Below are positions 1 to 16,133 of a stretch of DNA of 64,000 bases, piece after piece. Made by a program: the position numbers and the translations under genes. The DNA is from Thermomonas sp. (lineage in GTDB: Bacteria > Pseudomonadota > Gammaproteobacteria > Xanthomonadales > Xanthomonadaceae): assembly GCF_041919455.1 (NCBI RefSeq), contig NZ_JAYRTQ010000005.1:33079-97078 (forward strand), written 5' to 3'. Under the pieces are notes generated by a model. That model was given only the letters and a program-made list of their open reading frames with translations, searched no databases and was not told the DNA's origin. The stretch's first letter is position 1, and each line of letters opens with the position of its first letter.

Positions 1-276
1 CATGCGCTCATTTGCCTGTTGGTAGGCCAGCGCCTGGTCCACGCCGTGCTGGCGTAGCTTCTGCGCGGTGTCCTTGAGTTCCGCGATGAACTTGCGGTCG
101 GCCTCGCGATCGATCTTGAGTTGCTTGGCCTCGGCGATGGCGGCCGTGCCCTTGTTCCAGCGGTGCACGACGTAGCCCGAAAGCCCCGCGCTCAGCGCGA
201 TGGCGATCAGCACCGCGATGCCGATGGCAGGCAACAGCCCGGCTGCGGACGCGGCGGCGTAGCGGGCGCGGATCAT
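1..276 (-). CDS. Rz-like i-spanin (partial; N-terminal TM helix then charged coiled-coil), continues past window start
   Basis: Own translation of minus strand from ATG at 276: MIRARYAAASAAGLLPAIGIAVLIAIALSAGLSGYVVHRWNKGTAAIAEAKQLKIDREADRKFIAELKDTAQKLRQHG... Not in ORF table because there is no stop in the window. ATG overlaps stop of upstream gene (ATGA). Confidence 0.45.
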   Translation of the reverse strand, partial: MIRARYAAASAAGLLPAIGIAVLIAIALSAGLSGYVVHRWNKGTAAIAEAKQLKIDREADRKFIAELKDTAQKLRQHGVDQALAYQQANERM

Positions 277-491
277 GCGACCCACCGCACGAACACCACC
301 ACCAGCCAGATGACCGCAACGACGATACCGATGGCACCGGCCGGCAACAGCCAGCAAAGCAGCGTCCAGTCCAGGTGGAATTTGGTGGAGGGTGCCGGCT
401 GCATCACGCCCGCCAGCAGAACCACCCAACCGATCACGCCAGCGACGATGCTGGCCAGCAACAACATCAACGGCCAGAACCACATCAGCAC
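273..491 (-). CDS. small 2-TM membrane protein of lysis cassette (P2 LysA-like position between endolysin and spanin)
   Basis: 72-aa Trp/Leu-rich hydrophobic ORF with two predicted TM helices. GTG/ATG start overlaps endolysin stop; its stop overlaps the Rz start. Confidence 0.4.
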   Translation of the reverse strand: MLMWFWPLMLLLASIVAGVIGWVVLLAGVMQPAPSTKFHLDWTLLCWLLPAGAIGIVVAVIWLVVVFVRWVA

Positions 492-1150
492 ACCGCCTTG
501 CCGGACCAGCCGGCTTTCAGGTAGGCGGGCTCAAGCGTGAGCATGATGACCCGCGGGTAGTGGGTGTTTTCCTTGTGCGCCCAGGTGGCGCGAAGGCGCA
601 CACGGGCCACCTCGTGCCAGTCGTTGGCATCACCGCCAGCGCGCTGCGTGGCCAGGCGTTCCTTGGTGAGCCAGCCCTCGCCGCCGTTGTAGCCGCGCAG
701 CGCGAAGGCCCGGCGCGAGCACTCCGACATGGCGCGGGCGTGGCGGTAGGGCTTCACCCGCTCATGCAGCCAGGCCATGTAACAGGCCTGCGCGCGGAGC
801 GCCCATTGCGGATCCCACACATCCGGCGCACCCACCGCCGGGCACACCGAGGGCAACCACTTGGCGGTGGCGGGCGTGAACTGCGTCAGGCCCTGCGCAT
901 ACGGACTTTGCGCGGTCGCGCGCCAGGCGCTTTCCTGGTGCACCTGCGCCGCCAGCATGGCGACGTATTCGCTGCCGTGGATGCCGTAGTTGCGCGTGGC
1001 CTCCCGCTCGATCGCCAGGCGATAGGTCACTGCCACCTGCGGAATGCGCGTTTGCGCTCGTGCCGTCTGAGGGAACAGGCAGCCGACGAACAACGCCAGC
1101 AGCACCAGCCCCAGCAGAAAGCTGCTGGCATTGATCAGCCAGCGCTTCAC
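485..1150 (-). CDS. phage endolysin, soluble lytic transglycosylase (SLT-domain)
   Basis: 221 aa. Motif ESAWRATAQSPYAQGLTQFTPATA is typical of family-1 lytic transglycosylases. N-terminal hydrophobic segment (possible signal/SAR anchor). GTG start in GTGA overlap with upstream small ORF. Confidence 0.8.
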   Translation of the reverse strand: MKRWLINASSFLLGLVLLALFVGCLFPQTARAQTRIPQVAVTYRLAIEREATRNYGIHGSEYVAMLAAQVHQESAWRATAQSPYAQGLTQFTPATAKWLPSVCPAVGAPDVWDPQWALRAQACYMAWLHERVKPYRHARAMSECSRRAFALRGYNGGEGWLTKERLATQRAGGDANDWHEVARVRLRATWAHKENTHYPRVIMLTLEPAYLKAGWSGKAVC

Positions 1151-1296
1151 GAGGCCACCACCGATGCGGCCGCAGGCGCCGGCGCGCGATCGCGCGTGCA
1201 GCTGTAGAGCATCGCGCCGATGATGGCGAGCGCGATCACGGTTTCGCAGACCTGCTTCACGATCTTCGCGCGGTCGCTTGGCTTCGGCTCGCTCAC
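1147..1296 (-). CDS. small single-TM protein between holin and endolysin (candidate antiholin or second holin)
   Basis: Own translation: VSEPKPSDRAKIVKQVCETVIALAIIGAMLYSCTRDRAPAPAAASVVAS (49 aa). GTG start overlaps holin stop (GTGA); its TGA overlaps the endolysin GTG. Confidence 0.35.
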   Translation of the reverse strand: MSEPKPSDRAKIVKQVCETVIALAIIGAMLYSCTRDRAPAPAAASVVAS

Positions 1297-1628
1297 GGCA
1301 CGAACGCCAGGGCGACGATGCAGGCGCAGATGATCCAGCCGCAGACCTTCCAGTCCGTGCCGATGGTGATGCCCGAAGGCTCCGGCGGCATGGGGTGGAT
1401 CTGGCGCATGCCCCAGTGCACGACGATGCCCAGCAGGCCGCCCATCAGCACCTTGCCCATGCCGAACACGGCGGGCAGCGCCTTGATCGGCGCTTCGAAC
1501 ATCACGACCACGAAGCACACCAACCACAGCGACCACAGCGGCCAGAGCTTCACCAGCCAGCCGTCCTTGGAGATCGCCGCGGCAAACACGCCGCGGAAGT
1601 ACTGCTTGAGGAATTGGACGTCGAACAT
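1293..1628 (-). CDS. holin (3 predicted TM helices, class-I-like)
   Basis: Probable start MFDVQFLKQYF... preceded by GGAG about 8 nt upstream. Three hydrophobic helices. First gene of the leftward lysis operon. Confidence 0.6.
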   Translation of the reverse strand: MFDVQFLKQYFRGVFAAAISKDGWLVKLWPLWSLWLVCFVVVMFEAPIKALPAVFGMGKVLMGGLLGIVVHWGMRQIHPMPPEPSGITIGTDWKVCGWIICACIVALAFVP

Positions 1629-1746
1629 GGCGCGCTCCGATTGAGAGATCGGACGACGGCGACCCGAGGAGACCGCCGCCGTCCGAGGACCAACCGGGTC
1701 TAGCACCGGTTGACGGGGCGACTTTCCTCGCGTGACCGGGGCGCGT

Positions 1747-1784
1747 CTCGGAACGCGCGTTCCGAGCGTTACGCGCGCGCGCGT
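1747..1784. promoter_or_regulatory. GC-rich palindromic operator pair upstream of lysis operon (candidate late-promoter activator site)
   Basis: Perfect 18-bp palindrome TCGGAACGCGCGTTCCGA (~1747-1764) followed by perfect 14-bp palindrome ACGCGCGCGCGCGT (~1771-1784), ~120-160 bp upstream of the holin start. Confidence 0.4.
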
Positions 1785-1819
1785 GAAACCGTGCGCGCCT
1801 GTCCAGCAGGAACGCCGCT

Positions 1820-2074
1820 ATGGGAATTCGTCGGAGTGTGTTGGCCCACGCGATTGCGGTGGGCTTGGCGTTCGAGGCCGATCAGCGTCAGAACGAGGCT
1901 TTCGACTGGAAGGCGCAGGACGCGGCATTCAGCGCCGCTAACGCCCTGAATGTGGAGCAGCTGGACCGCGCGCGCGAAGCGCTTAGTTCGGCCTTGTCTG
2001 CAGGGGATGCGCCCGACGAAGCTGCTGCGCGACTATCTCAAGCGCTTGGCGGGACGGTGCCGCCGCTTCATTGA
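1820..2074 (+). CDS. hypothetical small protein with signal-peptide-like N-terminus
   Basis: 84 aa, MGIRRSVLAHAIAVGLAFEA|DQ..., AGGAA about 9 nt upstream. Weak support; overlaps a convergent minus-strand ORF. Confidence 0.3.
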   Translation: MGIRRSVLAHAIAVGLAFEADQRQNEAFDWKAQDAAFSAANALNVEQLDRAREALSSALSAGDAPDEAAARLSQALGGTVPPLH

Positions 2075-2357
2075 CCTGCCACGTTGATCGGCTGAAGGTG
2101 GAGCCAGGCATTCGCAGCTTGCCCATGAAGTCCACCAACAATGCAGAGGCGGTGTCTTGTGCCGCCTCACTCGCAGCGCCCCAGCCCGCTACTTTCCCCG
2201 CGGAAAGGTCCAACAGGAATGCGACCGCTTCTGGCTCCGCATGCGCATCCATCCTGACGGGGCGCCCGGTGCTAACCAGCCAGGGCATCGCGCGGAAAAG
2301 TTCGAAGAACAGGCCAAAGGCGGTCTCGGCATCAACTGAGCGGCGGGTGTCGGTCAT
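1983..2357 (-). CDS. hypothetical protein (124 aa)
   Basis: ORF with protein-like composition. No recognisable domain and no clear RBS. Confidence 0.25.
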   Translation of the reverse strand: MTDTRRSVDAETAFGLFFELFRAMPWLVSTGRPVRMDAHAEPEAVAFLLDLSAGKVAGWGAASEAAQDTASALLVDFMGKLRMPGSTFSRSTWQVNEAAAPSRQALEIVAQQLRRAHPLQTRPN

Positions 2358-2535: not shown

Positions 2536-2970
2536 CTATGGGCTGGTCGGGCGCGCGTCCAATTCCGCGCCCAGGTCCGCAATAGCGGCCTCGAACGCCT
2601 CACCCGCACGCCTGTGCTCGTCCTGAGCAAAGGGGTTGCCCAGCGCCTGCAGGTAGTTGAGCCACTTCGCATACATCGCAGTTAGCTGCGGCCTTGAATC
2701 TGGCGCTTGCTCAAGAGTGGACCGATACAGGGGCTTAACCTTTTCCCGCATTTCAGCCTCGCATTTCAGGCCCACTTCGCCGGCTTGTTGAATTCGCTTC
2801 GCGCTGGCATTCGCGGGCACTTCGAGAGCCGCGAGCTGGCCATCAATTGAGCACTTGGCAGCATCCGCGCGCAGCTCTGTGATCAAGCGGGCCTCCGGCG
2901 AATCGGAGGCGGAATCCCCAGCGTGGGTGAGCCCCGGCATCAAGAGAATCACGAACAGCAGCTTATTCAT
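2536..2970 (-). CDS. secreted protein (cleavable signal peptide), moron downstream of repressor
   Basis: 144 aa, MNKLLFVILLMPGLTHA|GDS..., two Cys, helical. Start overlaps repressor stop (ATGA). Confidence 0.55.
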   Translation of the reverse strand: MNKLLFVILLMPGLTHAGDSASDSPEARLITELRADAAKCSIDGQLAALEVPANASAKRIQQAGEVGLKCEAEMREKVKPLYRSTLEQAPDSRPQLTAMYAKWLNYLQALGNPFAQDEHRRAGEAFEAAIADLGAELDARPTSP

Positions 2971-3392
2971 TTCGTCCCCTTATTCGGCGCGAGCCGCGCG
3001 GCGAGGCCACGTATCTGGCTTTGATCTTCCGGCGCGCAGCTCAGGTAGTCATCGAGCAGCTGTTGCGTCTCTTCATCCGCATCATAGGCAGACACGAGGG
3101 TCTCGAAGAAGGCTGTCTGTAGCCTGCCGAACTCCGCTTTGTCACCCGTCACCAATGCCGCCATCTCGGTCGCGGCCTTGATCGCATTTAGACGGCCACG
3201 AAGCTTCTTTGTAGTGCCTGTGACGATGTAATCGACATCTAGTCCGAGCCCCGCCCATGCCGCGAGTGCGGCGGCGTCAGGCGTTCTTTCTCCTGCTTCG
3301 TATCGGATGAGCGTTGTGCGCCCGATACCCAGCCTCTTCGCGAAGTCGACCTGACTCATATCCGCGCGCACTTGGCGGATTCGCTCACCCAT
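2967..3392 (-). CDS. prophage repressor, XRE-family HTH (Mu c / CI-like), no S24 peptidase domain
   Basis: MGERIRQVRADMSQVDFAKRLGIGRTTLIRYEAGERTP is a classic HTH_XRE. ORF table extends start to 3467 (MFPNGN...); the internal ATG at 3392 gives the usual HTH-at-N-terminus layout. Confidence 0.8.
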   Translation of the reverse strand: MGERIRQVRADMSQVDFAKRLGIGRTTLIRYEAGERTPDAAALAAWAGLGLDVDYIVTGTTKKLRGRLNAIKAATEMAALVTGDKAEFGRLQTAFFETLVSAYDADEETQQLLDDYLSCAPEDQSQIRGLAARLAPNKGTK

Positions 3393-3442
3393 CTGACGGT
3401 GGTGCTCTGGAATTGCCACTGAAAATGTCCCCGAACGGGTAT

Positions 3443-3465
3443 TGACAGCGTTCCCATTCGGGAAC
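3443..3465. promoter_or_regulatory. c/ner divergent switch region: perfect -35 TTGACA followed by palindrome GTTCCCATTCGGGAAC
   Basis: TTGACA at ~3443-3448 on the Ner-reading strand. 16-bp inverted repeat with 6-bp arms at ~3450-3465 sits in the promoter spacer. Related half-site CCGAACGGG at ~3431-3439. Confidence 0.4.
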
Positions 3466-3529
3466 ATGATTAGCCCAAGTCGTCACGCGACGGCTCAGCT
3501 AACAAATCAGACCGGAGAGGGTAACAGGC

Positions 3530-3781
3530 ATGCACCCCGAAGAAATCAAGGCTGCGATGCGGATCGCGGGGACTACCCCGGCGATGCTGGCTGACGCGCT
3601 GGATGTGTCGAAGGCGACCGTTAGCACGGTCATCCACGGCCGCGCCGAATCAGCCCGCGTCAAAGCCAGCATCTCCAAACTCATCGGCAAGCCGGTCTCG
3701 GTCATCTGGCCGGGTGCGGCGCGCAAGTCCCTTCAGCGCCCCAAGGGCAGCGTGAAGCCGCGCGCAAGGGCGCACGCGTGA
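3530..3781 (+). CDS. ner: Ner/Nlp-family DNA-binding protein (Mu Ner-like early regulator)
   Basis: 83 aa. ...TTPAMLADALDVSKATVSTVIHG...KPVSVIWP matches the Ner pattern (...TTLANALERHWPKGE...KPEVIWP). Divergent from the repressor. Confidence 0.75.
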   Translation: MHPEEIKAAMRIAGTTPAMLADALDVSKATVSTVIHGRAESARVKASISKLIGKPVSVIWPGAARKSLQRPKGSVKPRARAHA

Positions 3782-3966
3782 GCACCTTCAAGCCCACTCG
3801 CGCTGAACTGCGCCGCATCCAATACCTGGCGCACGAGTGCGAGACCGACGCGCGAGCCACGCAGCAGCAGCCTGGCCGCCGGTGGTACGGCATGCATCGT
3901 CCTGCCCAGCGTTCTGCAGAGGCCTTCGCGCTGTCGGCCCGCGTTGCCGCGAGGGCCGGCGCATGA
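3778..3966 (+). CDS. hypothetical small early protein (62 aa)
   Basis: GTG start overlapping ner stop (GTGA). No domain. Confidence 0.3.
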   Translation: MSTFKPTRAELRRIQYLAHECETDARATQQQPGRRWYGMHRPAQRSAEAFALSARVAARAGA

Positions 3967-4256
3967 GCAAGCAATCCATCACCGCCCGCCTGCTGTTCGG
4001 CCTGGCCGGCCACAGCTACCGCGGCCTGCGCCTGCAGCAGATCGCCGACGGCATCGGCGAGTCCCCCAGCACCGCGCTCCGCAACCTCGAACGCATGGCC
4101 GAAGACGGCCTGGCCGAGAAATCCCCGCATGACGACAAGGCATGGCGCCTGTCCCCGCGCCTGGTGCAGGTCGCCACGGCGCATGCCCAGGAGGTGCTGC
4201 GCGAGCAGCGCGAACTGGACGAATTCAACCAGCGGTTCACCCGCAACCCCAACTAA
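3963..4256 (+). CDS. winged-helix (IclR/MarR-like N-terminal HTH) DNA-binding protein
   Basis: MSKQSITARLLFGLAGHSYRGLRLQQIADGIGESPSTALRNLERMAEDGLAEK..., 97 aa. Confidence 0.5.
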   Translation: MSKQSITARLLFGLAGHSYRGLRLQQIADGIGESPSTALRNLERMAEDGLAEKSPHDDKAWRLSPRLVQVATAHAQEVLREQRELDEFNQRFTRNPN

Positions 4257-4270
4257 CCCGAGGAATCACG

Positions 4271-5212
4271 ATGGCGAAGAAAGAAACACGCGGTGCCAAG
4301 CCGCTGGCACCGGTCACCCTGCAGGGCGACGTGATGGACGGCGAGGCGCTGGCGGAGCGCAGCCAGCAGCTGGCGACCGCCGCAGAAGTCAAAGCGGCCT
4401 ACGGCGCCGACCGTGACCTGATCAATCAACTGCTTGGGCAGGCTCAGATGGCCCAAGCGTTCGGGAAATTTGCTGACGTGTCAGCAGTCTCGAAGATCGC
4501 AAGCGTCAAGGAATCGGGGATTTACAAGGGTTTGGCCGGCATGTTGGGTGCTGACGGTCAGCAATTGGCGGGAACCTGGGCGGAGTTTTGCGGCCTCCTC
4601 GGTCGATCCCACCAGCAAGTGGATGAGGACATCCGGAACTTGCGGGCGCTTGGCTCCGAAGCGCTGGAAGCGATGGGCCGCATGGGCATCGGCTATCGCG
4701 AGCTGCGCCAGTACCGTCAGCTCTCCGCCGACGACCAGACCGCGCTGGCCGAAGTGGCCAAAACCGGCGACAAGGAAGCCGTCCTGGACCTGGCCGAGGA
4801 ACTGATCTCCCGGCAGCGCAACGAGAACGAAAAGCTCGCCGGGCAGCTGGAGAAGAAGGTCGCCGAGTACGACTCGCTGTCCGAACGCCAGGCCAAGCTT
4901 ACCGAAGACCTGGACAAGGCCAAGGCCAAGGCCGCGCTGCTGCCGCGCATGAAGGCAGACAAGAAGGCCGACCACATGCTGGCCGAACTGGAAACCGCGT
5001 TTGCCGAGGCCCGCACCGCGCTGCGCAATGTGGCGCAGGGCGCAGCCCGGTTCCTGGAATACGCAGCTGATAACGGCCTGGACTTCGACGAGGACGTGTC
5101 CGCTCGCACTGTCGAGCTGGACAACATGCTGCTGGCCCTGGTGATGGATCTGCGCCTGCGCGGCATCAACCAGCCGCACGAGAACGCGCTGGTGGTGTTG
5201 GGGGGCGCCTGA
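4271..5212 (+). CDS. hypothetical coiled-coil early phage protein (313 aa)
   Basis: MAKKETRGAKPLAP... with GAGGA RBS. Long heptad-rich central region. Confidence 0.6.
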   Translation: MAKKETRGAKPLAPVTLQGDVMDGEALAERSQQLATAAEVKAAYGADRDLINQLLGQAQMAQAFGKFADVSAVSKIASVKESGIYKGLAGMLGADGQQLAGTWAEFCGLLGRSHQQVDEDIRNLRALGSEALEAMGRMGIGYRELRQYRQLSADDQTALAEVAKTGDKEAVLDLAEELISRQRNENEKLAGQLEKKVAEYDSLSERQAKLTEDLDKAKAKAALLPRMKADKKADHMLAELETAFAEARTALRNVAQGAARFLEYAADNGLDFDEDVSARTVELDNMLLALVMDLRLRGINQPHENALVVLGGA

Positions 5213-5213
5213 C

Positions 5214-5516
5214 ATGTCCGATGCCGCCGACCTTGAGGAGATGGAGAAGGCATTCATTGCCCTGGGTATGCGGGCGATGCATGGCGCGTTCTTCCTGACC
5301 GTTGAATCGCAACCGGAGAGTCCAGACGCGCGCTTGCTGATCAGCAACTGCGACGAGGAAGTGCTTCTGGCGCGAAAGAACACTGCGGGGCGTTTCGAAG
5401 CACTGATGCGCCAGGGTTACACCTTGGCGGAGACCTTTGGCCACATGTTTGCCGAGGGCTGGCTCAACGACATCACCGATCGCCCCGCCCGTGGTTTCCG
5501 TAAGGACGAGCACTGA
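5214..5516 (+). CDS. hypothetical early protein (100 aa)
   Basis: ATG in TGACATG junction with upstream gene. Confidence 0.5.
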   Translation: MSDAADLEEMEKAFIALGMRAMHGAFFLTVESQPESPDARLLISNCDEEVLLARKNTAGRFEALMRQGYTLAETFGHMFAEGWLNDITDRPARGFRKDEH

Positions 5517-5517
5517 C

Positions 5518-7329
5518 ATGTCGGCCGATCCGCGCATCGTTGAAGCAGCGGGCGAGTGGTACCGCGCTGAGCACAACACCAAGACGGAGATTGTGCTGCG
5601 GCTCGCCAGCGAACTTGGCGTGAGCTACAGCACCGCATACCGGCGGATCGGCGAGGTCGCGCCCAAGCGTCCGCGCAAGCGGCGCAGCGATGCCGGCAGC
5701 TGTGCGATGACGGAGCGCGAGGCCGAACTTATCTGGGCAATGGTGCGCGAGACCACTCGCCAGACCGGCACGGGTGCCATGACCGTGATGGACGCGGTGA
5801 ATACGCTGCGCGCCAACGGCCACATCGAAGCCGCGCGGATCGACAAGGCCACGGGCGAGTGGAAGCCCTACAGCGAGTCCGTGATCCGCAAGGCGCTCCG
5901 CGGATTCGGCTACAGCCTGGACGTGATGACAGCGCCGAGCCCGACCACGCGGTTGTCCAGTCCGCACCCCAACTGGTGCTGGCAGATCGACGCCTCCGTG
6001 AGCCGCCAGTTCTACCTGGCCGACAGCAGCGCGGAGGTGATGGACAAGGCCGTGTACTACCGCGGCAAGCCGGGCAATTTCACCAAGATCGCCGAGCGTC
6101 GGATCTGGCGCTACTGCGTGACCGACCACTGCAGCGGCTGCATCGAGGTGTTCTACGTGCAGGGCGCGGAAAGCGGTGCGAATGTCATTGCCAGCCTGAT
6201 CCATGCCATGACACGCCGCACCGGCGGCACCATGCACGGCGTACCGCGCTTCCTGATGACCGACCCTGGCAGCGGCATGATCGCAGCGCCGGTGAAGAAC
6301 TTCCTGGCTGCCTTGGGCGTTGAGCACCTGCCGCATGCGCAGGGCGCGGCCAACGTGACCGGTCAGGTCGAGAACGCGCACTACCTGGTGGAGCGGCACT
6401 TCGAGGCGTTGCTGAAGCTGCAGACGCCCGTGACCAGCATCGCCGAAATCAATGCACTGGCTCAGCAGTGGGCGCGCGCGTTCAACGCGACCCAACCGCA
6501 CTCGCGCCACGGCATGACCCGCCGCGACGGCTGGCTGCGCATCACGCCTGAGCAGCTCGTGCTGGCACCGGAAATCGAGGTGCTGAAGCAGCTCCCAAAC
6601 AGCACCCCGCAGAAATGCAAGGTGCGGAACTGGATGGTGCGCTACGGCGGCGCGACCTACGACCTCCGCGGATTCCCTGGCGGGTTGGGCAATGGCCAGG
6701 AAGTGCTGGTTGTGCGCAACGCGCTGGATGCCGACAAGGCGAGCGTGCGCGTGCTGCTGAAAGACGCGGACGGGAACGTCTCGCACTTCATCGCACCGCG
6801 CGAGAGCTACAAGGACGAGACGTGGGGCTTCCCCACCTATGCGGCCGAAATCGGCACCGAGTTCAAGAGCGCGCCCGAAAGCCCCGCCGACGCCCGCAAC
6901 AAGGCACTGGAACGCTTGGCGATGGACGTAGCCACCGACCAGGACGCCAAGGCGGCACGCAAAGCCAAGCGCGTGTCGTTCGGCGGTGCCATCGACCCGA
7001 TGAAGCACATCCGCGACGTGAATGCCGCCATCCCGGAAGCGCTGCCGCGCGCAGGCACGCAGTCGCAGGTGGAAGCGCCCGCGATTGCCGAGCGGCAGAT
7101 TGCACCGGAGCCCATCCGCGCCGAGCTGCCCGCGCTCAACCACGTCGAAGCCGCGATGCGCCTCAAGCCGCTGGTGGAACGCGCAGGCGCGCAGTGGGAC
7201 GGGAGCATGTACGCGCGCACCGAGCAGCGCTGGCCCGACGGCCTGCCGATCGATGAGGTCGAAGCCTGGGCCGAAGTGCTGGCCACGCCTGAGCGCGGCG
7301 GCCTGCGGATCGTGGGAGGTGCGGCATGA
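5518..7329 (+). CDS. DDE transposase, Mu A-like (rve/integrase core)
   Basis: 603 aa from MSADPRIVEAAGEWY. N-terminal HTH then catalytic core WQIDAS...MTDPGSG...ENAHYLVERHF (D, D, E). AGGA RBS. Confidence 0.85.
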   Translation: MSADPRIVEAAGEWYRAEHNTKTEIVLRLASELGVSYSTAYRRIGEVAPKRPRKRRSDAGSCAMTEREAELIWAMVRETTRQTGTGAMTVMDAVNTLRANGHIEAARIDKATGEWKPYSESVIRKALRGFGYSLDVMTAPSPTTRLSSPHPNWCWQIDASVSRQFYLADSSAEVMDKAVYYRGKPGNFTKIAERRIWRYCVTDHCSGCIEVFYVQGAESGANVIASLIHAMTRRTGGTMHGVPRFLMTDPGSGMIAAPVKNFLAALGVEHLPHAQGAANVTGQVENAHYLVERHFEALLKLQTPVTSIAEINALAQQWARAFNATQPHSRHGMTRRDGWLRITPEQLVLAPEIEVLKQLPNSTPQKCKVRNWMVRYGGATYDLRGFPGGLGNGQEVLVVRNALDADKASVRVLLKDADGNVSHFIAPRESYKDETWGFPTYAAEIGTEFKSAPESPADARNKALERLAMDVATDQDAKAARKAKRVSFGGAIDPMKHIRDVNAAIPEALPRAGTQSQVEAPAIAERQIAPEPIRAELPALNHVEAAMRLKPLVERAGAQWDGSMYARTEQRWPDGLPIDEVEAWAEVLATPERGGLRIVGGAA

Positions 7330-9725: not shown

Positions 9726-10092
9726 TACCCACAACGTCCTGCGCACGCGCGCGATCGCGGACGCGCTGGCCACCGCCCGCGAGACGATCCGCAACCTGGA
9801 ACAGCAGGGCATCACCGTGTTCGCGGTGAGCGCTACCGGCCGCCAGCCGACGCTGTTCGTCGACCGCATGCCGGAAGGCGTTGCGAGCGTGATCAAGCGC
9901 CACAGCCCAACCGCCGCTGGTCGCGAAGTGATCCGCGCTGCACCGTTCCAGGGCTGCCAGCTGGAAACGATGCGCGAGGAAATGGATAACCGCGTGAATC
10001 ACGCATTCGCGCTTGCGCGTGGGGCGGTGATCGCGGATCGGGTTGTCAGCGAAATCTTCGCGCCGCGCCTGCAGGCGGTGCCCCGTGACTGA
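9709..10092 (+). CDS. hypothetical early protein (127 aa)
   Basis: MNTATDTHNVLRTRAIADALA...; overlaps previous ORF end. Confidence 0.5.
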   Translation: MNTATDTHNVLRTRAIADALATARETIRNLEQQGITVFAVSATGRQPTLFVDRMPEGVASVIKRHSPTAAGREVIRAAPFQGCQLETMREEMDNRVNHAFALARGAVIADRVVSEIFAPRLQAVPRD

Positions 10093-10603
10093 GCCGCGCA
10101 ACCGCATGCTGTCGCACCCCGGCGAGGCCAAGTTACGCAAGGCCTACGGGATGCTGTCCAGCTGGACCACCAAGGGCCTGCAGAACCGATTGCTGGAAGA
10201 GGACATCGGCGTGTCGTCGGTGAACGCGGCCAACAACCTGATCGATGCCGGCATGAACGCTGGCCTGCTGGAACGCACGGGCACGCACGGCAATTACATC
10301 TTCCGCCTCAACACCGACTGGCAGCGGCCCGAGTGGTCGCGCCCGGCCAATGGCTACGAACCGCGCACCCCGTTCGCACCGCGCACGCGTGAGCCCGTGC
10401 AGGCGCAGGAACGGCCGCTTCTGCCGCCATCCGGCACCTATGCCGGCCCAGCGTTCGGCAACGGCCCGCTTGCGCCACACATCGGCCTGCGTTGCGCCGT
10501 GCGCGGCCTGGACAACGACGGCGAACTGCTGCCGTGCATTGGCGGCGCGATCGTCGATGGCCTGAATTCGCAGTTCCACCAAATGTTCGGGCGATTGGAG
10601 TAG
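10085..10603 (+). CDS. hypothetical early protein (~170 aa)
   Basis: GTG at 10085 (GTGA overlap) or ATG at 10106 (MLSHPGEAKLRKAYGMLSSW...). Confidence 0.5.
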   Translation: MTEPRNRMLSHPGEAKLRKAYGMLSSWTTKGLQNRLLEEDIGVSSVNAANNLIDAGMNAGLLERTGTHGNYIFRLNTDWQRPEWSRPANGYEPRTPFAPRTREPVQAQERPLLPPSGTYAGPAFGNGPLAPHIGLRCAVRGLDNDGELLPCIGGAIVDGLNSQFHQMFGRLE

Positions 10604-10606
10604 TCC

Positions 10607-10882
10607 ATGCGCCGGAACGGACGGCCACGTCAGGACCGCTTGCGCGCCATGCGCTTCGCGCTGTGGGCGCAGAACGTCGCGCCGCACCTGCTGACCGTCA
10701 AGCAAGTCAGCGGCCTGCTGGACCTGAGCGAATGCTCCGCGCGCCTCTGGCTGCGCGACTACCAGCTGGCCGCCTCGCCGATGTTCGTGCACGGCATTCC
10801 GCCGTTTCTCACACCGCATTCCGAGACCCCTTTCACCGCACCGGCGGCAATCGGTACGGCGCACACGACCAGCAGGAGTTAG
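10607..10882 (+). CDS. hypothetical protein with HTH-like segment (91 aa)
   Basis: ...LLTVKQVSGLLDLSECSARLWLRDYQ... resembles an excisionase/MerR-type HTH. Confidence 0.4.
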   Translation: MRRNGRPRQDRLRAMRFALWAQNVAPHLLTVKQVSGLLDLSECSARLWLRDYQLAASPMFVHGIPPFLTPHSETPFTAPAAIGTAHTTSRS

Positions 10883-10885
10883 ACC

Positions 10886-11509
10886 ATGCAGCACACCACC
10901 CATGAAATCCCCGCCGGCTACCGCCAGGACGCCCGCGGCCACCTGATCCCTGAAGAGCAGATCAAGCCCATCGACCTGGCACGCGACCAGCTGGTGCTGG
11001 ACATCGTCGGACGCGCCAGCACGCTCGCCACCCAGCTGCAGACGTTCAAGCGCAGCGCCTTCGACGACATCGAAGCCCTGGTCTCGCTCAGCGCCGAGCA
11101 GTACGGCGTGAACATGGGCGGCAAGAAGGGCAACGTGCAGCTGGTCAGTTTCGACGGCCGCTACAAGGTGCTGCGCGCCATCGCCGACCGCATCACCTTC
11201 GACGAGCGTCTGCAGGCCGCCAAGGTGCTGATCGACGAGTGCCTCAACGACTGGACCGACAAGGGGCCGGGCGAGCTGCGCGTGATCGTGCAGGACGCCT
11301 TCGACGTGGACAAGGCCGGCAACATCAACGTCGGCAAGATCCTGAGCCTGCGCCGCCACAAGATCGACGATCCGCGCTGGAAGCGCGCGATGGATGCCAT
11401 CAGCGACGCGGTCCAGGTCATCGGCACCACGCCTTACCTGCGCGTGTACGAGCGCGTGGGCAACAGCGACAAGTACCAGCTGCTCAACCTCGACGTGGCG
11501 GGTGCGTGA
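10886..11509 (+). CDS. DUF3164-like Mu-type phage protein
   Basis: 207 aa. Pattern recalled for DUF3164 proteins of Mu-like prophages (IPAGYR...GHLIPEEQIKPID...VSFDGRYKV...). Recognition from memory only. Confidence 0.55.
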   Translation: MQHTTHEIPAGYRQDARGHLIPEEQIKPIDLARDQLVLDIVGRASTLATQLQTFKRSAFDDIEALVSLSAEQYGVNMGGKKGNVQLVSFDGRYKVLRAIADRITFDERLQAAKVLIDECLNDWTDKGPGELRVIVQDAFDVDKAGNINVGKILSLRRHKIDDPRWKRAMDAISDAVQVIGTTPYLRVYERVGNSDKYQLLNLDVAGA

Positions 11510-11790
11510 TGGCCGCCGTCAAACCCCGCGCGTACCCGGCGAAGGGCGCCGCCGGCAACCGCAAGCAAGAGGCGTTGCCGGGCACGCTGGAAGTGTTGGT
11601 GACCAATGATGCCGACGGCTTCCACGCCTCTGCGCGCAAGAAGGTCGCCAGCGGGCATTCGTCGTCCTGGGCGGTGCGCCGGCTGGCCGGGCTGCTGGGC
11701 TACAGCAAGCACGCCGACGTGGTCTACATCGGCCCGCGCGATGGGCAGATGGTGTTCCGGATCGTGGAGGTGATGCCGTGCACGCAATAA
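11509..11790 (+). CDS. hypothetical early protein (93 aa)
   Basis: TGATG overlap with DUF3164 gene. Confidence 0.5.
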   Translation: MAAVKPRAYPAKGAAGNRKQEALPGTLEVLVTNDADGFHASARKKVASGHSSSWAVRRLAGLLGYSKHADVVYIGPRDGQMVFRIVEVMPCTQ

Positions 11791-12209
11791 CCCCGAGCGC
11801 GGGCCATCCGCGTGAGCCGGACTGCGATGCCGGCACCATCGCCGACTGCGAAGCGCGCTTCACCGGCCCCAACTTCGGCATGCATCCGGTCAACGCGGCC
11901 AACCGCGAGCGCAGCATGCGCACGCTCAATCTGGCGACGGTGATCGCCTGCGATGTGGTCTCCGACGTGATCGCCAACAACGCGGTGTCGATCAAGGTCG
12001 ACGGCTACTACTGGTTCGACATCAACCGGCCGGCACTGGCGGAACCGGACATGGGTGGCTTCTGGACCACAGAGGAAATCGCGGAGTGCAAGCAGCGCAT
12101 CGATCGCGCAGTGCAGTACATCGAGCTGCGCGAACCGGATGCCTTCCCGTCGCGCTTCATCCGCCACCCCGACCAACCGCACCTGGTGCGCTTCGAGGCC
12201 AAGCCATGA
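11778..12209 (+). CDS. hypothetical protein, paralog 1 (C-terminus ...HLVRFEAKP)
   Basis: Start uncertain (GTG 11778 / ATG 11880 / ATG 11916). Confidence 0.45.
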   Translation: MHAITPSAGHPREPDCDAGTIADCEARFTGPNFGMHPVNAANRERSMRTLNLATVIACDVVSDVIANNAVSIKVDGYYWFDINRPALAEPDMGGFWTTEEIAECKQRIDRAVQYIELREPDAFPSRFIRHPDQPHLVRFEAKP

Positions 12210-12463
12210 CCCTGTCCGAGCTGTACGGCAAGCCGCCCGGCGTGAGCGACGATCAAGCCCGCCGCACCATCGAGTTCTGCTGCCCGGTCGCCGTCGAGGA
12301 CGGCACCGAGTGGTACGACATGGAAGCCGTCGCCAACCTCAACCTGGACGACGTGATCGCGGCCTTCCGCTGGCTGGAAGAGCGCGGCGAAGCCACGATC
12401 GGCTTTCGCGTGGTGCGCGATCTCAACCGCCCGAATCTGATTCGGTTCGAGGTGCGGCCGTGA
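12206..12463 (+). CDS. hypothetical protein, paralog 2 (C-terminus ...NLIRFEVRP)
   Basis: 85 aa, MTLSELYGKPPGVSDD...; ATGA overlap. C-terminal third aligns with the preceding gene product. Confidence 0.5.
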   Translation: MTLSELYGKPPGVSDDQARRTIEFCCPVAVEDGTEWYDMEAVANLNLDDVIAAFRWLEERGEATIGFRVVRDLNRPNLIRFEVRP

Positions 12464-12702
12464 AAGAGAAAGACGTGCAACGACTGATCGCGCTCGCGGT
12501 CTACACCGTCATTTTCCTGATCCTTGTTGCGATCTCCGTGATCACCAGCAGCGCCGGCTGCTGGGCGCGGTGGGAAGACAGCGGCATGCGCAGCAAGTGG
12601 GGGCCAATCGCCGGGTGCCGCGTGCAGCGCGCTGACGGCAAGTGGATTCCCAGCGAGAACCTCCGCGATATGGACCTGCAATCGCGCGAGGTGCGGCCGT
12701 GA
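12463..12702 (+). CDS. small membrane protein (79 aa, 1 TM)
   Basis: GTG in GTGA overlap. ...LIALAVYTVIFLILVAISVI... Confidence 0.45.
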   Translation, partial: KEKDVQRLIALAVYTVIFLILVAISVITSSAGCWARWEDSGMRSKWGPIAGCRVQRADGKWIPSENLRDMDLQSREVRP

Positions 12703-12947
12703 ATGCCGGTGAAGTGCTCGCGTTCGTCCTGCTCAGCATCCTGCTTGGCATGGCGGGCGGGATTCTCAAGATGGCAGTCGATGGCTCGAACGCACCACGC
12801 CTGGTCGCATTCGGCGCGCTCGGTGGCCTGATTGCCTCTTCGATGATGGGGCTCCAGTTCATCGGGTTGATCGACATCGTGCTTCTCGTGCTGTGCGGCT
12901 TCCTGGCGGCCGATGTGTTCGAGGCGATGACAGTGGAGCGCCGCTGA
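12699..12947 (+). CDS. small membrane protein (82 aa, 2-3 TM)
   Basis: GTG in GTGA overlap. Hydrophobic throughout. Confidence 0.45.
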   Translation: MNAGEVLAFVLLSILLGMAGGILKMAVDGSNAPRLVAFGALGGLIASSMMGLQFIGLIDIVLLVLCGFLAADVFEAMTVERR

Positions 12948-12948
12948 C

Positions 12949-13854
12949 ATGTTCTTCCGCGCCCTGACCATGTTCCGCTTCCCGTCAACGATGGACCTCA
13001 CCGACCTGGACGCATGCCTGAGCGAATGCGCGCTCAAATCCGTCGGGCCGCTGGAGCTGCACAGCGTCGGCTTCGTGCCGCCGTTCGGCCACCACGGCGA
13101 TGCGATGTCGCACTGGTGCGGGCAAGCCATCTGGCTGACCGTGGGCATGGAGGAACGACTGTTGCCGGCAGCCGTGGTCAACAAGGCGCTGGATGACCGT
13201 CTGCAGGCCATCAAGGAGCGCGAGGGCCGCATGCCTGGCGGCCGCGCGCGCAGGCGCTTGAAGGATGACCTGATCAGTGAGTTGCTGCCGCGTTCGCACG
13301 TGCGCGCCACCCGCGTGGATGCGCTACTGGACACGCACCACAACGTGATCGCCGTGGACACCAGCAGCCGACGCACCGCGGAGATGGTGGTGAGCGAGAT
13401 CCGCCGCGCCTTGGGCAGCTTCCCCGCACTGGCGCTCAATGCCGAGGTCGCGCCGCGCGCCATCCTGACCGGCTGGGTTGCCGGCGAAGCGCGCCCGCAA
13501 GGCCTGGAACTGGCCGAGGACTGCACGCTCCAAGACCCCACCGACACCGGCGCGAAGGTGAAGGTCTACCGCGTCGACCTGGGCAGCGACGAGATCGAGA
13601 AACACCTGGAAACCGGCCGCCAGATCACCTGCCTGTCGCTGGTGCTGCACGACAGCGTGGCCTTCGACATCGACGAGCGCCTGATCGTGCGCAAGTTCAA
13701 GCTGCTGGACGGCGCGATCGACCGGCTGGAAAGCACCGAGCGCAGCGACATCGCCGCCGAGCTGGACGCCCGCTTCGCGCTGATGGCCGGCGAATTCGGC
13801 CGGCTGTTCGACGTGCTGGAAGCGGCGTTCAAGATCAGCAGGGCGGACGCGTGA
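12949..13854 (+). CDS. rdgC: recombination-associated protein RdgC homolog
   Basis: 301 aa. MFFRALTMFRF..., VGFVPPFGHHGDAMSH, ARFALMAGEFGRLFDVL align with E. coli RdgC (MLWFKNLMVYRL..., MGWVPPMGSHSDALTH, ...FILMTGELAALIQNL). Confidence 0.8.
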   Translation: MFFRALTMFRFPSTMDLTDLDACLSECALKSVGPLELHSVGFVPPFGHHGDAMSHWCGQAIWLTVGMEERLLPAAVVNKALDDRLQAIKEREGRMPGGRARRRLKDDLISELLPRSHVRATRVDALLDTHHNVIAVDTSSRRTAEMVVSEIRRALGSFPALALNAEVAPRAILTGWVAGEARPQGLELAEDCTLQDPTDTGAKVKVYRVDLGSDEIEKHLETGRQITCLSLVLHDSVAFDIDERLIVRKFKLLDGAIDRLESTERSDIAAELDARFALMAGEFGRLFDVLEAAFKISRADA

Positions 13855-14156
13855 TGGTCGATAAAGCGCACAGCGACAGCCTCGCCAGCATGCTCGAAGG
13901 CGAGTGGAAGCCGATTCGTCACCTGACCTTTGCCCAAGGCGTCGCGGCCGCTTCCATCCTGCGTGCGTACCTCGTCGACGAACCGCTGCGGGCATTGGAG
14001 GCCGCGACGCGCCTGGTGCAATCCCACCCATCGGCGGACGTCGCAGATTGCTTCTGCGATGGCATCGCAATGGCGCTGAGCCTGAGGCCCGAAGAGCGGC
14101 CAGGGGCACTCGTGCGGATGCACTCGAATTGCCAGTTTGCAGCCGGGGCATCGTGA
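13851..14156 (+). CDS. hypothetical protein (101 aa)
   Basis: GTGATG junction with rdgC. Confidence 0.45.
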   Translation: MMVDKAHSDSLASMLEGEWKPIRHLTFAQGVAAASILRAYLVDEPLRALEAATRLVQSHPSADVADCFCDGIAMALSLRPEERPGALVRMHSNCQFAAGAS

Positions 14157-14509
14157 TGGATCGGACAGCCATGAAAGCGCCTAGCGTCACCGAGCAGATG
14201 AAGGCCGAGGAAGGCACCGAGCGCGTGCAGCGCGCGATGGCCGCGCAGGACTACGATCCTGCCGCGCCGCGGTGCGCCACCTGCGTCTATTTCAAGCACG
14301 AGCCGCTGGTCCGGCTGGTCGAGCGCACGCTGGACAGCCGCCACGGCAAGAAGACCCGCAAGGTCATGGTCCGGCTGCGTCCGCACCCCACCCGCAACCC
14401 GATGGTCGACCGCTGCACCTTCGGCAACTTCCTGGTGAAGCCGGCCGGCGTCTGCAACGAATGGCACAGCCGCAGCGGCGAGCGCATCGCGCTGGAGACC
14501 GCGCCATGA
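14156..14509 (+). CDS. Cys-rich hypothetical protein (117 aa; CxxC...C...C, possible zinc binding)
   Basis: ...PRCATCVYFKHE...DRCTFGNFLVKPAGVCNEWH... Confidence 0.5.
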   Translation: MDRTAMKAPSVTEQMKAEEGTERVQRAMAAQDYDPAAPRCATCVYFKHEPLVRLVERTLDSRHGKKTRKVMVRLRPHPTRNPMVDRCTFGNFLVKPAGVCNEWHSRSGERIALETAP

Positions 14510-14919
14510 AGGCGCTCAGCATCCTGCAGCCTTGGGCGTGGCTGATCGCAAACGGCCACAAGGACATCGAGAACCGCTGCTGGCGGACGCATTTTCGCGG
14601 CCAGTTCCTGGTGCATGCCGGAAAGCGCTGGGGTACTGAACAACGCGAGGATCTGGCGCGCGTCCGAGCTGCCTTCCCGCACATCCCATTGCCGGAGTCG
14701 TTCGACCTTGGCGGCCTTGTTGGGCAAGCCCGCATCGTTGATTGCGTGGATGACCACACGAGCCCGTGGTTCGTGGGTGAGTTCGGTTTCGTCATCGCCG
14801 ATGCGTCTCCGCTGCCGTTCACCCCATGCCGCGGGATGCTGAATTTCTTCACGCCGGCACTGGCCAGGCACCAGATGCCTTGCCTGATGGGGCCATACCT
14901 TTCGAGGCACGGACCATGA
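14506..14919 (+). CDS. ASCH-domain protein (prophage type)
   Basis: MKALSILQPWAWLIANGHKDIENRCWRTHFRGQFLVHAGKRW matches the common prophage ASCH N-terminus. Confidence 0.65.
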   Translation: MKALSILQPWAWLIANGHKDIENRCWRTHFRGQFLVHAGKRWGTEQREDLARVRAAFPHIPLPESFDLGGLVGQARIVDCVDDHTSPWFVGEFGFVIADASPLPFTPCRGMLNFFTPALARHQMPCLMGPYLSRHGP

Positions 14920-15383
14920 CCCGCGCCGCCACCAACGCCGCCAAGACCCGCAAGCGCGTCCTGGGCGCCATCCACATCGCGGCCAAGCAGCTCGGCTTGG
15001 ACGAGGAGACTTATCGCAGCCTGATCGCGCGCGTGAGCGCCGAGCACGGCGCCGAGCAGACCTCGTGCGCCACCTGCACGCCGGCCCAACTGAACGCCGT
15101 TGCCAACGAGCTGCGGCGGATCAGCGGGAAGCCAGCTCACGCCGCGCAGAATGCGCAAAAGTGGGCCGGCAAGCCGAAGGGCGACCTGTCGCCGCAGCTG
15201 GCCAAGATCGAGGCGCTGCTGGCCGATGCGGGCCGGGAATGGGCCTACGCCCACGGCCTGACGAAAAAGCTTTGCAAAGGCGTCGCCCGCGTCGAGTGGT
15301 GCAACCAGGACCAGCTCGCCAAGGTGATCGCCGCGCTCCAGATCGACGCCGACCGACGCGCCCGGAGGGCCGCCACCGAGTGA
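14916..15383 (+). CDS. gemA: GemA-like (Mu gp16 / DUF1018) regulatory protein
   Basis: ...RKRVLGAIHIAAKQLGLDEETYRSLIARVSAEHG... pattern of GemA family. Position immediately before mor, as in Mu. Confidence 0.65.
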   Translation: MTRAATNAAKTRKRVLGAIHIAAKQLGLDEETYRSLIARVSAEHGAEQTSCATCTPAQLNAVANELRRISGKPAHAAQNAQKWAGKPKGDLSPQLAKIEALLADAGREWAYAHGLTKKLCKGVARVEWCNQDQLAKVIAALQIDADRRARRAATE

Positions 15384-15727
15384 GCCGCTACGCCAACCGC
15401 CACGAGTTCTTCGCCTCGGTCGACGAGGTAGTCCAGCGCCTGCTGGAAGAGAACGGCATCGACGCCGCGCTGTGCGAACAGTGCGGCGCCGCCGTGGCGG
15501 ATGGCATTGCGGCCGAGTGGGCGTCGCAGGAGATCTACGTGCCGCAGGACGCCAGCTACAAGCTGAGCAAGCGCGAGGCCGAGGCGCTCCGCCAGATCCG
15601 GGAGGGCACACCGAAGGACCAGGTGCGCCGCAACTTCAACATGTCCCGGCAGGGCTTTGCGCGCCTGCTGAAGCGCGCCCACGCCCGCGATCGCCACCTC
15701 GATCAGGGTAAGCTGTTCGAGGCCTGA
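15380..15727 (+). CDS. mor: Mor/C-family transcriptional activator (middle/late gene activator)
   Basis: 116 aa. C-terminal ...EIYVPQ...EALRQIREGTPKDQVRRNFNMSRQGFARLLKR matches Mu Mor (...QVYIPRG...IRDLRIWNDFNGRNVSELTTRYGVTFNTVYKAIRR). GTGA overlap. Confidence 0.7.
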   Translation: MSRYANRHEFFASVDEVVQRLLEENGIDAALCEQCGAAVADGIAAEWASQEIYVPQDASYKLSKREAEALRQIREGTPKDQVRRNFNMSRQGFARLLKRAHARDRHLDQGKLFEA

Positions 15728-15737
15728 GGAGGGCGCT

Positions 15738-15962
15738 ATGGAACTGGTCAGCTCGAACGAGGCATGGCAGGCCGCCATCAACCAGATGAAGGCCCAGCAC
15801 GGATATCCGCCGCGTAAGGCGAGGGTCGGGATCGACTACGCAAAAGAGTTGTTCCGGCTGGTCTCCCCACAGACCAAGGCCACCGAGGCCGAGTTCCTGG
15901 CCGCGATCGAAAAGGGTGGCGTGAGGTTCAACGAGGTCGAGCTGCAGGCAGGCTGGGTTTGA
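15738..15962 (+). CDS. hypothetical protein (74 aa), last gene of the prophage block
   Basis: Strong RBS GGAGGG before ATG. Confidence 0.55.
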   Translation: MELVSSNEAWQAAINQMKAQHGYPPRKARVGIDYAKELFRLVSPQTKATEAEFLAAIEKGGVRFNEVELQAGWV

Positions 15963-16133
15963 TTGCACCAGCCGCAACTTCATTGCACTGAGAGCCGCCG
16001 ACTTCCGACTTCTTCCGGGTTCTTCCGGCAAGATATCTCAGTGAAAGCCCCTGAATATCTCAATCACAGACAACCACCCACGTGGCGCGGGTCTTCCCTC
16101 CTTCATCCCCTCTCTCACATCCCCCCAAGGCCC

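What the first reader, a model, noticed from the sequence alone, without database searches (positions are those of the whole stretch)
1..16133. Mu-like prophage with atypical layout: lysis genes transcribed leftward, Mor activator at the extreme right, and no visible late genes after it
The c-repressor/Ner-like pair, MuA-like DDE transposase, MuB-like ATPase, GemA-like and Mor/C proteins identify a transposable-phage lineage. In Mu/B3/D3112-type phages the lysis and morphogenesis genes follow mor on the same strand. Here the block stops after one 74-aa gene and abuts host lysAC. The lysis cassette lies to the left of the repressor on the opposite strand and continues off the window. Three explanations fit: a rearranged but intact genome, a remnant truncated at the right, or two adjacent phage-derived segments.
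Basis: partly seen in the sequence, partly recalled or inferred. Interest (0 to 1): 0.6.

Follow-up and report, generated by a model that had tools for sequence, protein, structure and literature searches.

The report
Ordinary B3/BcepMu-type transposable prophage
This is a Mu-like transposable prophage of a Thermomonas bacterium whose "odd" gene order is the normal order of the well-known B3/BcepMu group, so it is a new member of a known kind.

Summary

The layout is not atypical. Phages phiSHP3 (Stenotrophomonas), BcepMu (Burkholderia) and PM105 (B3-like, Pseudomonas) all have Mor as the terminal gene, transcribed towards the genome end. In all three the lysis, packaging and structural genes lie on the opposite strand beyond the repressor. 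[quoted passage not shown]

The right phage end is intact at 16072. About 110 nt of terminal sequence, ending ATATCTCA-N8-CA, aligns with the phiSHP3 terminus and with related viral contig ends. Homology to phage-free Thermomonas genomes begins at 16073.

A contig 100% identical to window 1-13709 extends past the left edge. It carries Rz, Mu-gp27-type small terminase, large terminase and a Mu-type portal, all leftward, with 16.5 kb more unseen.

Truncation at the right and two juxtaposed phages are both rejected. The left end and target duplication could not be seen. Low interest.

The parts
1..276 (-). N-terminal part of an Rz-like i-spanin (TM segment plus coiled coil). The gene starts at 276 and runs off the left edge; it is 257 aa in the identical contig L152.
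   Evidence: Translation. Full gene at L152 3986-4759.
273..485 (-). 70-aa membrane protein between endolysin and Rz. Same position as PM105 gp26; possible holin or antiholin partner.
   Evidence: No family match.
485..1150 (-). Endolysin, a lytic transglycosylase (SLT) with an N-terminal hydrophobic signal-anchor, as in the BcepMu gp22 type.
   Evidence: phrog_669 E 1e-35. PF01464. 39% identity to BcepMu gp22 and 44% to PM105 gp25.
1293..1628 (-). 111-aa multi-TM protein, the putative holin and first gene of the lysis cassette. The 355-bp gap upstream (1629-1982) is the likely late promoter region.
   Evidence: Sequence. Gene called on Logan contigs. No family match, so the holin assignment rests on position and hydrophobicity.
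1983..2357 (-). 124-aa conserved phage protein of unknown function.
   Evidence: phrog_22093 E 2e-19.
2536..2970 (-). 144-aa protein with a signal peptide, immediately downstream of the repressor and overlapping its stop. Probably a lysogeny-expressed accessory gene, like BcepMu gp18.
   Evidence: No PADLOC match.
2967..3392 (-). Lysogeny repressor (HTH_3 / XRE type), transcribed leftward.
   Evidence: PF01381 E 1.5e-9. phrog_8 and phrog_4. Weak match to BcepMu gp17.
3393..3529 (.). Divergent control region. It holds a promoter-like TTGACA-17-CATGAT at 3442-3470(+) facing ner, bracketed by 15-nt inverted repeats 3425-3439 / 3453-3467 (operator-like).
   Evidence: Function is inferred.
3530..3781 (+). 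Ner-like regulator, first gene of the early operon.
   Evidence: PF13693 HTH_35 E 1e-8. phrog_769 E 1e-12.
3963..5516 (+). Three early genes: an IclR-like HTH regulator (3963-4256), a phrog_4623 protein (4271-5212) and a 100-aa protein (5214-5516).
   Evidence: phrog_1368 E 2e-23. phrog_4623 E 1e-65. 54% identity to phiSHP3 orf18.
5518..7329 (+). DDE transposase of the BcepMu gp09 / B3 A family (603 aa).
   Evidence: phrog_310 E 8e-84. 59% identity to phiSHP3, 41% to BcepMu gp09, 39% to PM105 gp12. No match to MuA in the PDB.
7502..8632 (+). MuB-like AAA+ transposition ATPase.
   Evidence: phrog_296 E 2e-70. AAA_22 and TniB. 65% identity to phiSHP3 and 50% to BcepMu gp08.
8634..14919 (+). About 18 small early or accessory genes. 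They include DUF3164 (10886-11509), RdgC (12949-13854) and an ASCH-domain protein (14506-14919).
   Evidence: phrog_846 E 1e-88. PF04381 E 2e-84 and PF04266. Collinear with phiSHP3 orf3-14. Gene calls.
14916..15383 (+). GemA.
   Evidence: PF06252 E 2e-17. 62% identity to phiSHP3 orf2.
15380..15727 (+). Mor-family late/middle transcription activator. It is the last conserved gene of the early operon.
   Evidence: PF08765 E 1e-16. phrog_532. Matches phiSHP3 orf1 and BcepMu gp01, the terminal genes of those phages.
15738..15962 (+). 74-aa orphan ORF between mor and the phage end. GC3 is 0.82 and it is called as a gene in the Logan assembly. It is absent from phiSHP3, PM105 and BcepMu.
   Evidence: No match in Pfam, PHROGs, PADLOC or the phage collection.
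15963..16072 (+). Right phage end (att-type terminal region). It contains TTGCA...TGCAA elements, three TCTTCCGG-like repeats and two ATATCTCA repeats (16033, 16055). It ends ...ACAGACA at 16072.
   Evidence: Alignment with the phiSHP3 terminus and IMG/VR contig ends. ATATCTCA occurs only here in 64 kb, against 0.18 expected. Repeats.
16073..18755 (+). Host DNA: the lysAC leader (16073-16133) and lysAC (ATG at 16134). Homology to phage-free Thermomonas genomes starts at 16073.

Best explanation
Window 1-16072 is the right-hand ~16 kb of one transposable (Mu-like sensu lato) prophage of the B3/BcepMu/phiSHP3 architectural type, inserted in a Thermomonas chromosome 61 bp upstream of lysAC. In this type the early operon is inverted relative to Mu. 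From a divergent control region (3393-3529) the repressor is transcribed leftward. The early operon runs rightward: ner, regulators, transposase A, ATPase B, about 18 accessory genes, gemA, mor. It runs all the way to the genome terminus, so mor is the last conserved gene before the transposase-binding end. Mor acts in trans. Once made at the distal end of the 12.5-kb early transcript, it switches on late promoters on the other arm. That arm (lysis cassette, Mu-gp27-type TerS, TerL, Mu-type portal, then head and tail genes) is transcribed leftward, beyond the repressor and off the window. Shown here: gene identities, synteny, the intact right terminus, and the terminase and portal genes immediately left of the window. 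Inferred from the family (RNA-seq of B3-like Fc02, PMC9936078; Mu genetics): the temporal programme, trans-activation by Mor, and replicative transposition. Completeness of the unseen ~20 kb is probable but not shown.
For: (1) Collinear protein synteny of window 3963-15727(+) with phiSHP3 9930-125(-): A 59%, B 65%, DUF3164 58%, RdgC 49%, GemA 62%, Mor 37%. Anchor genes also match BcepMu and PM105. (2) The annotated maps of phiSHP3, BcepMu and PM105 all have Mor as gene 1 at the extreme end on the bottom strand. Repressor, holin/endolysin/Rz, TerS, TerL and portal lie on the top strand. [quoted passage not shown] BcepMu has genes 1-13 on the bottom strand, the control region at genes 16/17, then lysis and morphogenesis on the top strand, and terminal CA (PMC2771037). 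In Fc02 the pE operon runs ner...A, B, gemA, mor, and Mu's mor is cited there as the last gene of the left operon (PMC9936078). (4) Right terminus: about 110 nt aligns with the phiSHP3 virion end and two IMG/VR ends. All four stop at the same CA, 10 nt after ATATCTCA. That 8-mer is unique to this spot in the window. Homology to Thermomonas empty sites starts at 16073. (5) L152 (Logan SRR26835472_5597) is 100% identical to window 1-13709. It continues 4,483 nt to the left with Rz, gp25-like and gp26-like genes, Phage_Mu_Gp27 TerS (61% to phiSHP3), Terminase_6 TerL and a Portal_Mu portal (60% to phiSHP3), all leftward. The contig has 16,542 nt more. (6) The same divergent arrangement occurs in IMG/VR contigs L010, L013, L112, L113, L115, L116, L118, L121 and L132-L134.
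Against: The left end, the target-site duplication and the head/tail genes beyond the portal were not seen. A prophage that is defective or truncated on the left therefore cannot be excluded. Late promoters and Mor binding sites were not identified. The extra 74-aa ORF after mor has no counterpart in the reference phages.
Confidence: 0.9

Rival explanations
1. A B3/BcepMu-type prophage that is defective: truncated or decayed somewhere in the unseen left ~20 kb, so that only the early arm, lysis and packaging genes survive.
For: Only 4.5 kb beyond the window could be read. The left terminus and target duplication are unseen.
Against: Every gene seen is full length compared with its homologues. 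The right terminus is intact. The identical contig continues 16.5 kb further, giving at least 37.1 kb from its start to 16072. phiSHP3 is 37.6 kb and BcepMu 36.7 kb.
Confidence: 0.12
2. A Mu-type prophage truncated at its right end, with the late genes after mor deleted.
For: Nothing phage-like follows the 74-aa ORF; host lysAC follows.
Against: The terminal ~110 nt match a bona fide virion end (phiSHP3) and end at the same CA. mor is terminal in all three reference phages. Late genes are present on the other arm.
Confidence: 0.02
3. Two independent phage-derived segments lying side by side: a lysis/late block from one phage and a transposition/early block from another.
For: The two blocks are on opposite strands. 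The endolysin matches BcepMu and PM105 but not phiSHP3, which shows module mosaicism.
Against: The same juxtaposition (endolysin(-), repressor(-), then regulators, A, B, GemA, Mor (+)) recurs in isolated phages and many IMG/VR contigs. The block left of the lysis genes is Mu-specific (Phage_Mu_Gp27, Portal_Mu), with no integrase.
Confidence: 0.02

Closest known systems
Stenotrophomonas phage phiSHP3 (MT872956) and vB_SmaS_Bhz63
   Same: Closest isolated relatives. Transposase 59%, B 65%, GemA 62%, TerS 61% and portal 60% identity. The order of the early arm is the same, ending in Mor at the terminus. The ~110-nt terminal sequence is alignable. The host family (Xanthomonadaceae/Lysobacteraceae) is the same.
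   Different: Nucleotide similarity is almost nil. The endolysin type differs. The window phage has a longer early arm (12.6 kb versus 10.2 kb), with extra small genes, an ASCH gene and a 74-aa ORF after mor. The host genus is Thermomonas.
Burkholderia phage BcepMu / phiE255 (Bcepmuvirus)
   Same: Two-cluster divergent layout with Mor as gp01. Shared families: gp09-type transposase (41%), gp08 ATPase (50%), DUF3164, SLT endolysin with signal-anchor (39%), gp25/gp26-like genes and gp27 TerS. Terminal CA.
   Different: More distant overall. BcepMu has a P2-like contractile tail module, whereas the portal here is closer to phiSHP3. The tail type here is unknown.
Pseudomonas B3-like phages (Beetrevirus: B3, PM105, Fc02)
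   Same: The same inversion of the early operon (Mor gp01, GemA gp02 ... A, B ... ner | repressor, holin, endolysin, small TM protein, Rz, TerS). Transposase 39%, endolysin 44%.
   Different: A different genus-level lineage and host. The accessory genes differ.
Escherichia phage Mu and Pseudomonas D3112-like phages
   Same: Same lifestyle and functional parts: repressor/Ner switch, DDE transposase plus AAA+ B protein, GemA, Mor, Mu-type TerS and portal.
   Different: In Mu and D3112 all genes except the repressor run in one direction, and the late genes follow mor. The transposase here shows no detectable sequence similarity to MuA.

Membership tests
B3/BcepMu/phiSHP3-type transposable phages (early operon inverted) | DDE transposase of the BcepMu gp09 / B3 A family, followed by a MuB-like AAA+ ATPase | tested here: met
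   phrog_310 E 8e-84 and phrog_296 E 2e-70. 39-59% identity to the three reference phages.
B3/BcepMu/phiSHP3-type transposable phages (early operon inverted) | Early operon transcribed towards the near genome end, with gemA and mor as its last conserved genes next to the terminus | tested here: met
   Mor at 15380-15727(+), 345 nt from the end at 16072. The same holds for phiSHP3 orf1, BcepMu gp01 and PM105 gp01.
B3/BcepMu/phiSHP3-type transposable phages (early operon inverted) | Divergent repressor/ner control region, followed on the repressor side by lysis cassette, Mu-gp27 TerS, TerL and Mu-type portal | tested here: met
   for the window part. L152 extension for TerS (PF11985), TerL and Portal_Mu.
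B3/BcepMu/phiSHP3-type transposable phages (early operon inverted) | Termini 5'-TG...CA-3' with repeated transposase-binding motifs in inverted orientation at the two ends | tested here: inconclusive
   The right end ends in CA with two ATATCTCA repeats and aligns with the phiSHP3 terminus. The left end is outside all retrievable sequence.
B3/BcepMu/phiSHP3-type transposable phages (early operon inverted) | Short target-site duplication flanking the prophage, and random insertion sites | not testable with these tools
   The left junction is not available. Only one insertion (upstream of lysAC) was seen, in the window and in L151 from the same sample.
B3/BcepMu/phiSHP3-type transposable phages (early operon inverted) | Replicative transposition, and virion DNA carrying variable host DNA at both ends | not testable with these tools
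   Needs induction and virion DNA sequencing.
Mu sensu stricto / D3112-type layout | All genes except the repressor transcribed in one direction, with late genes downstream of mor | tested here: not met
   Mor is followed only by a 74-aa ORF and the phage terminus. Late genes are on the opposite strand.
Mu sensu stricto / D3112-type layout | MuA-family transposase | tested here: not met
   No MuA hit by phmmer against PDB sequences at E<=1. Pfam gives only a sub-threshold rve match. The literature places the BcepMu/B3 transposases apart from MuA.

The most novel reading that the evidence does not exclude
The prophage sits between a conserved TAGAAT (-10-like) element and the lysAC start codon. 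It therefore separates this amino-acid biosynthesis gene from its presumed native promoter by about 37 kb. The outward-facing terminal 74-aa orphan gene, or the phage end itself, may now supply lysAC transcription. That would couple lysine/aspartate-family biosynthesis to prophage state.
Probability: 0.12. Interest if true: 0.35.

Novelty: new member of a known kind. Interest (0 to 1): 0.1.

Why it matters
It matters mainly as a correction. A Mor gene at the extreme end with no late genes after it does not signal truncation or rearrangement. It is the hallmark of the B3/BcepMu/phiSHP3 architecture. Annotators and prophage-boundary tools that expect the Mu order would mis-call such elements as remnants. 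The element adds a Thermomonas host to this group. It also gives a precisely mapped right end (16072) with a conserved terminal motif (ATATCTCA-N8-CA) that could be used to delimit related prophages.

Tried and rejected
(1) Extending the window leftward with the look-up of encoding contigs failed for the endolysin (with V or M start), the 70-aa protein, the 84-aa ORF, Ner, the IclR-like protein and the 166-aa repressor ORF, all 'not on record'. Two other look-ups found only short related contigs. I briefly suspected that the tool withheld off-window sequence; (transposase) disproved that and gave the extension. (2) search for homologous proteins with the 92-aa Rz fragment gave no hits. (3) The metagenome and IMG/VR scans with the endolysin found only relatives of at most 62% identity, none close enough to stand in for this prophage. 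(4) Megablast of the 16 kb against phages gave only two short 75% matches. (5) My first synteny table mixed phiSHP3 and BcepMu coordinates, because both records were in one file; it is corrected. (6) The ORF 3702-4184(-) was rejected as a repressor candidate: arginine/alanine-rich translation, no family hit, and not called on the Logan contig. (7) The Rfam scan of 1-17000 gave nothing. (8) PADLOC gave nothing for the accessory genes or the 74-aa ORF. (9) No tRNA is present in the window, so there is no tRNA-att type integration. (10) The terminator scan found nothing convincing after the repressor operon.


Full report
**Observation**

The window is 62-70% G+C throughout, with no compositional break at the phage.

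- Minus strand at the left edge:
  - an Rz-like spanin that starts at 276 and runs off the window
  - a 70-aa membrane protein (273-485)
  - an SLT endolysin with an N-terminal signal-anchor (485-1150; phrog_669 E 1e-35, PF01464)
  - a 111-aa multi-TM putative holin (1293-1628)
  - two accessory genes
  - an HTH_3 repressor (2967-3392)
- Plus strand:
  - a Ner-like HTH_35 protein (3530-3781) and an IclR-like regulator
  - a phrog_4623 protein
  - a 603-aa transposase (5518-7329; phrog_310 E 8e-84) and a MuB-like ATPase (7502-8632; phrog_296 E 2e-70)
  - about 18 small genes, including DUF3164, RdgC and an ASCH protein
  - GemA (14916-15383; PF06252)
  - Mor (15380-15727; PF08765 E 1e-16)
  - a 74-aa orphan ORF (15738-15962)
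- The next gene is host lysAC (aspartokinase + ACT + diaminopimelate decarboxylase). Its real start is the ATG at 16134.
- The long ORF 3702-4184(-) is a high-GC artefact.

**The layout is the normal layout of a known group**

- The transposase's best matches among isolated phages are Stenotrophomonas phiSHP3 and Bhz63 (59%), then BcepMu/phiE255 (41%) and B3-like Pseudomonas phages (about 39%). Phage Mu itself is not matched.
- The deposited annotations of phiSHP3, BcepMu and the B3-like PM105 all show the same map:
  - Mor is gene 1 at the extreme end on the bottom strand, followed by GemA, accessory genes, B, A and regulators.
  - A divergent control region comes next.
  - Repressor, holin/endolysin/Rz, TerS, TerL, portal, head and tail lie on the top strand.
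- Protein-level synteny of window 3963-15727(+) with phiSHP3 9930-125(-) is collinear. The anchor genes also match BcepMu and PM105 (which corrects).
- The literature states this explicitly:
  - BcepMu has genes 1-13 on the bottom strand, the control region at genes 16/17, then lysis and morphogenesis genes. It has a Tn552/IS1604-like rather than MuA-like transposase, and terminal CA (PMC2771037).
  - RNA-seq of B3-like Fc02 shows the pE operon running from ner through A, B, gemA and mor, with the other arm expressed later (PMC9936078).
- Consistent with this, the transposase here shows no similarity to MuA among PDB sequences.
- Among IMG/VR relatives both layouts occur. Divergent: L010, L013, L112, L113, L115, L116, L118, L121, L132-134. 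Collinear Mu-type: L015, L017, L117, L119, L120, L123. All relatives with at least 55% transposase identity whose locus reaches the far end of the early operon have mor last, as here.

**The right end is intact**

- The 110 nt after the 74-aa ORF align with the reverse complement of the phiSHP3 left terminus and with the ends of IMG/VR contigs L115 and L112.
- The invariant blocks are TTGCA...GCAA, TCTTCCGG repeats and ATATCTCA. All four sequences reach a terminal CA at the same column, 10 nt after the last ATATCTCA. In the window and in L112, unrelated host DNA follows.
- ATATCTCA occurs only twice in the 64-kb window, at 16033 and 16055, against 0.18 expected.
- LysAC homologues identify the host as a Thermomonas species, at most 94% identical to any representative genome.
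- Nucleotide homology to the phage-free locus of Thermomonas MAG L027 starts exactly at window 16073 (alignment).
- The phage therefore ends at 16072, and 16073-16133 is the host lysAC leader.

**The late genes are where the family predicts**

- Logan contig SRR26835472_5597 (34,734 nt) is 100% identical to window 1-13709 over 13,709 nt.
- The retrievable part (L152) extends 4,483 nt past the left edge of the window.
- All on the leftward strand, it encodes:
  - the rest of Rz (257 aa)
  - gp25-like and gp26-like proteins
  - a Phage_Mu_Gp27 small terminase (61% to phiSHP3 orf27)
  - a Terminase_6 large terminase
  - a Portal_Mu portal (60% to phiSHP3 orf29), cut at the locus end
- The contig has 16,542 nt more to the left. 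From its start to 16072 there are at least 37.1 kb. phiSHP3 is 37.6 kb and BcepMu 36.7 kb.
- A second contig from the same run (L151) is identical to window 13687-16290 and carries the same phage-lysAC junction.
- Contigs about 95% identical to window 1-1801 from other samples also continue into the small terminase.

**Mechanism (inferred from the family; only the anatomy is shown here)**

- In the lysogen the repressor is made leftward from the control region. That region has a promoter-like TTGACA-17-CATGAT facing ner at 3442-3470, bracketed by 15-nt inverted repeats.
- On induction the rightward 12.5-kb early operon is transcribed. It supplies Ner, transposase A and ATPase B for replicative transposition using the terminal repeats, and finally GemA and Mor.
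- Mor then acts in trans on late promoters of the opposite arm. The 355-bp gap upstream of the holin (1629-1982) is the obvious candidate.
- Mor needs no late genes in cis, so "no late genes after mor" is expected.

**Verdict on the three hypotheses**

- "Truncated at the right" is refuted by the intact terminus.
- "Two adjacent phages" is refuted because the arrangement recurs widely, and because Mu-specific packaging genes, not an integrase, follow the lysis genes.
- "Rearranged but intact" is closest, but the rearrangement is lineage-wide and long known.
- Still open: the left terminus, the target duplication and the head/tail genes beyond the portal. A prophage defective on the left keeps roughly 10% probability.
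- Classification: a new member, in a Thermomonas host, of a known kind. Interest is low.

Noticed in passing
window 16060-16140; L025-L028 upstream of lysAC: The insertion point is 61 bp upstream of the lysAC ATG and 2 bp downstream of TAGAATGC. That block is conserved in four phage-free Thermomonas loci within an otherwise variable intergenic region. The prophage therefore probably separates lysAC from its -10 element. The outward-facing 74-aa ORF and the phage end are the only sequences now upstream of lysAC.
   Followed up: partly
window 15738-15962: The 74-aa ORF after mor has good coding statistics and is called as a gene in the Logan assembly. It has no homologue in Pfam, PHROGs, PADLOC or 50,697 phage records, and no counterpart in phiSHP3, BcepMu or PM105. 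It may be a terminal moron.
   Followed up: partly
L105-L108 (locus coordinates, e.g. L105 2247-2543) versus window 3782-3962: Close relatives that share the identical 144-aa gene carry an extra 98-aa Mor-family (PF08765) gene right after ner, at the start of the early operon. The window phage has only a 181-bp gap there. This is a second Mor paralogue at the proximal end of the operon.
   Followed up: no
window 61523-62734 (and 61000-64000): A tyrosine recombinase (Phage_integrase PF00589, E 1e-12) lies in a stretch of lower G+C (0.61-0.63) at the right edge of the window. It may be the start of an unrelated integrative element.
   Followed up: no
window 25583-33686 (- strand): An operon of a 1,791-aa protein (DUF3686 'ATPase involved in DNA repair' + DUF7902 + AAA_5), a 677-aa protein with no Pfam match and a 217-aa protein. 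None has a PADLOC match. Function unknown.
   Followed up: partly
window 18752-20194 and 22655-24748: Two large host ORFs (480 and 697 aa) with strong coding signal but no Pfam family. The first is conserved next to lysAC in related genomes.
   Followed up: no
IMG/VR loci L015, L017, L117, L119, L120, L123 versus L010, L013, L112-L118: Phages whose transposases are about 50% identical to this one occur in both orientations of the early operon relative to the late genes. The inversion has therefore happened, or been exchanged, within this transposase family.
   Followed up: partly
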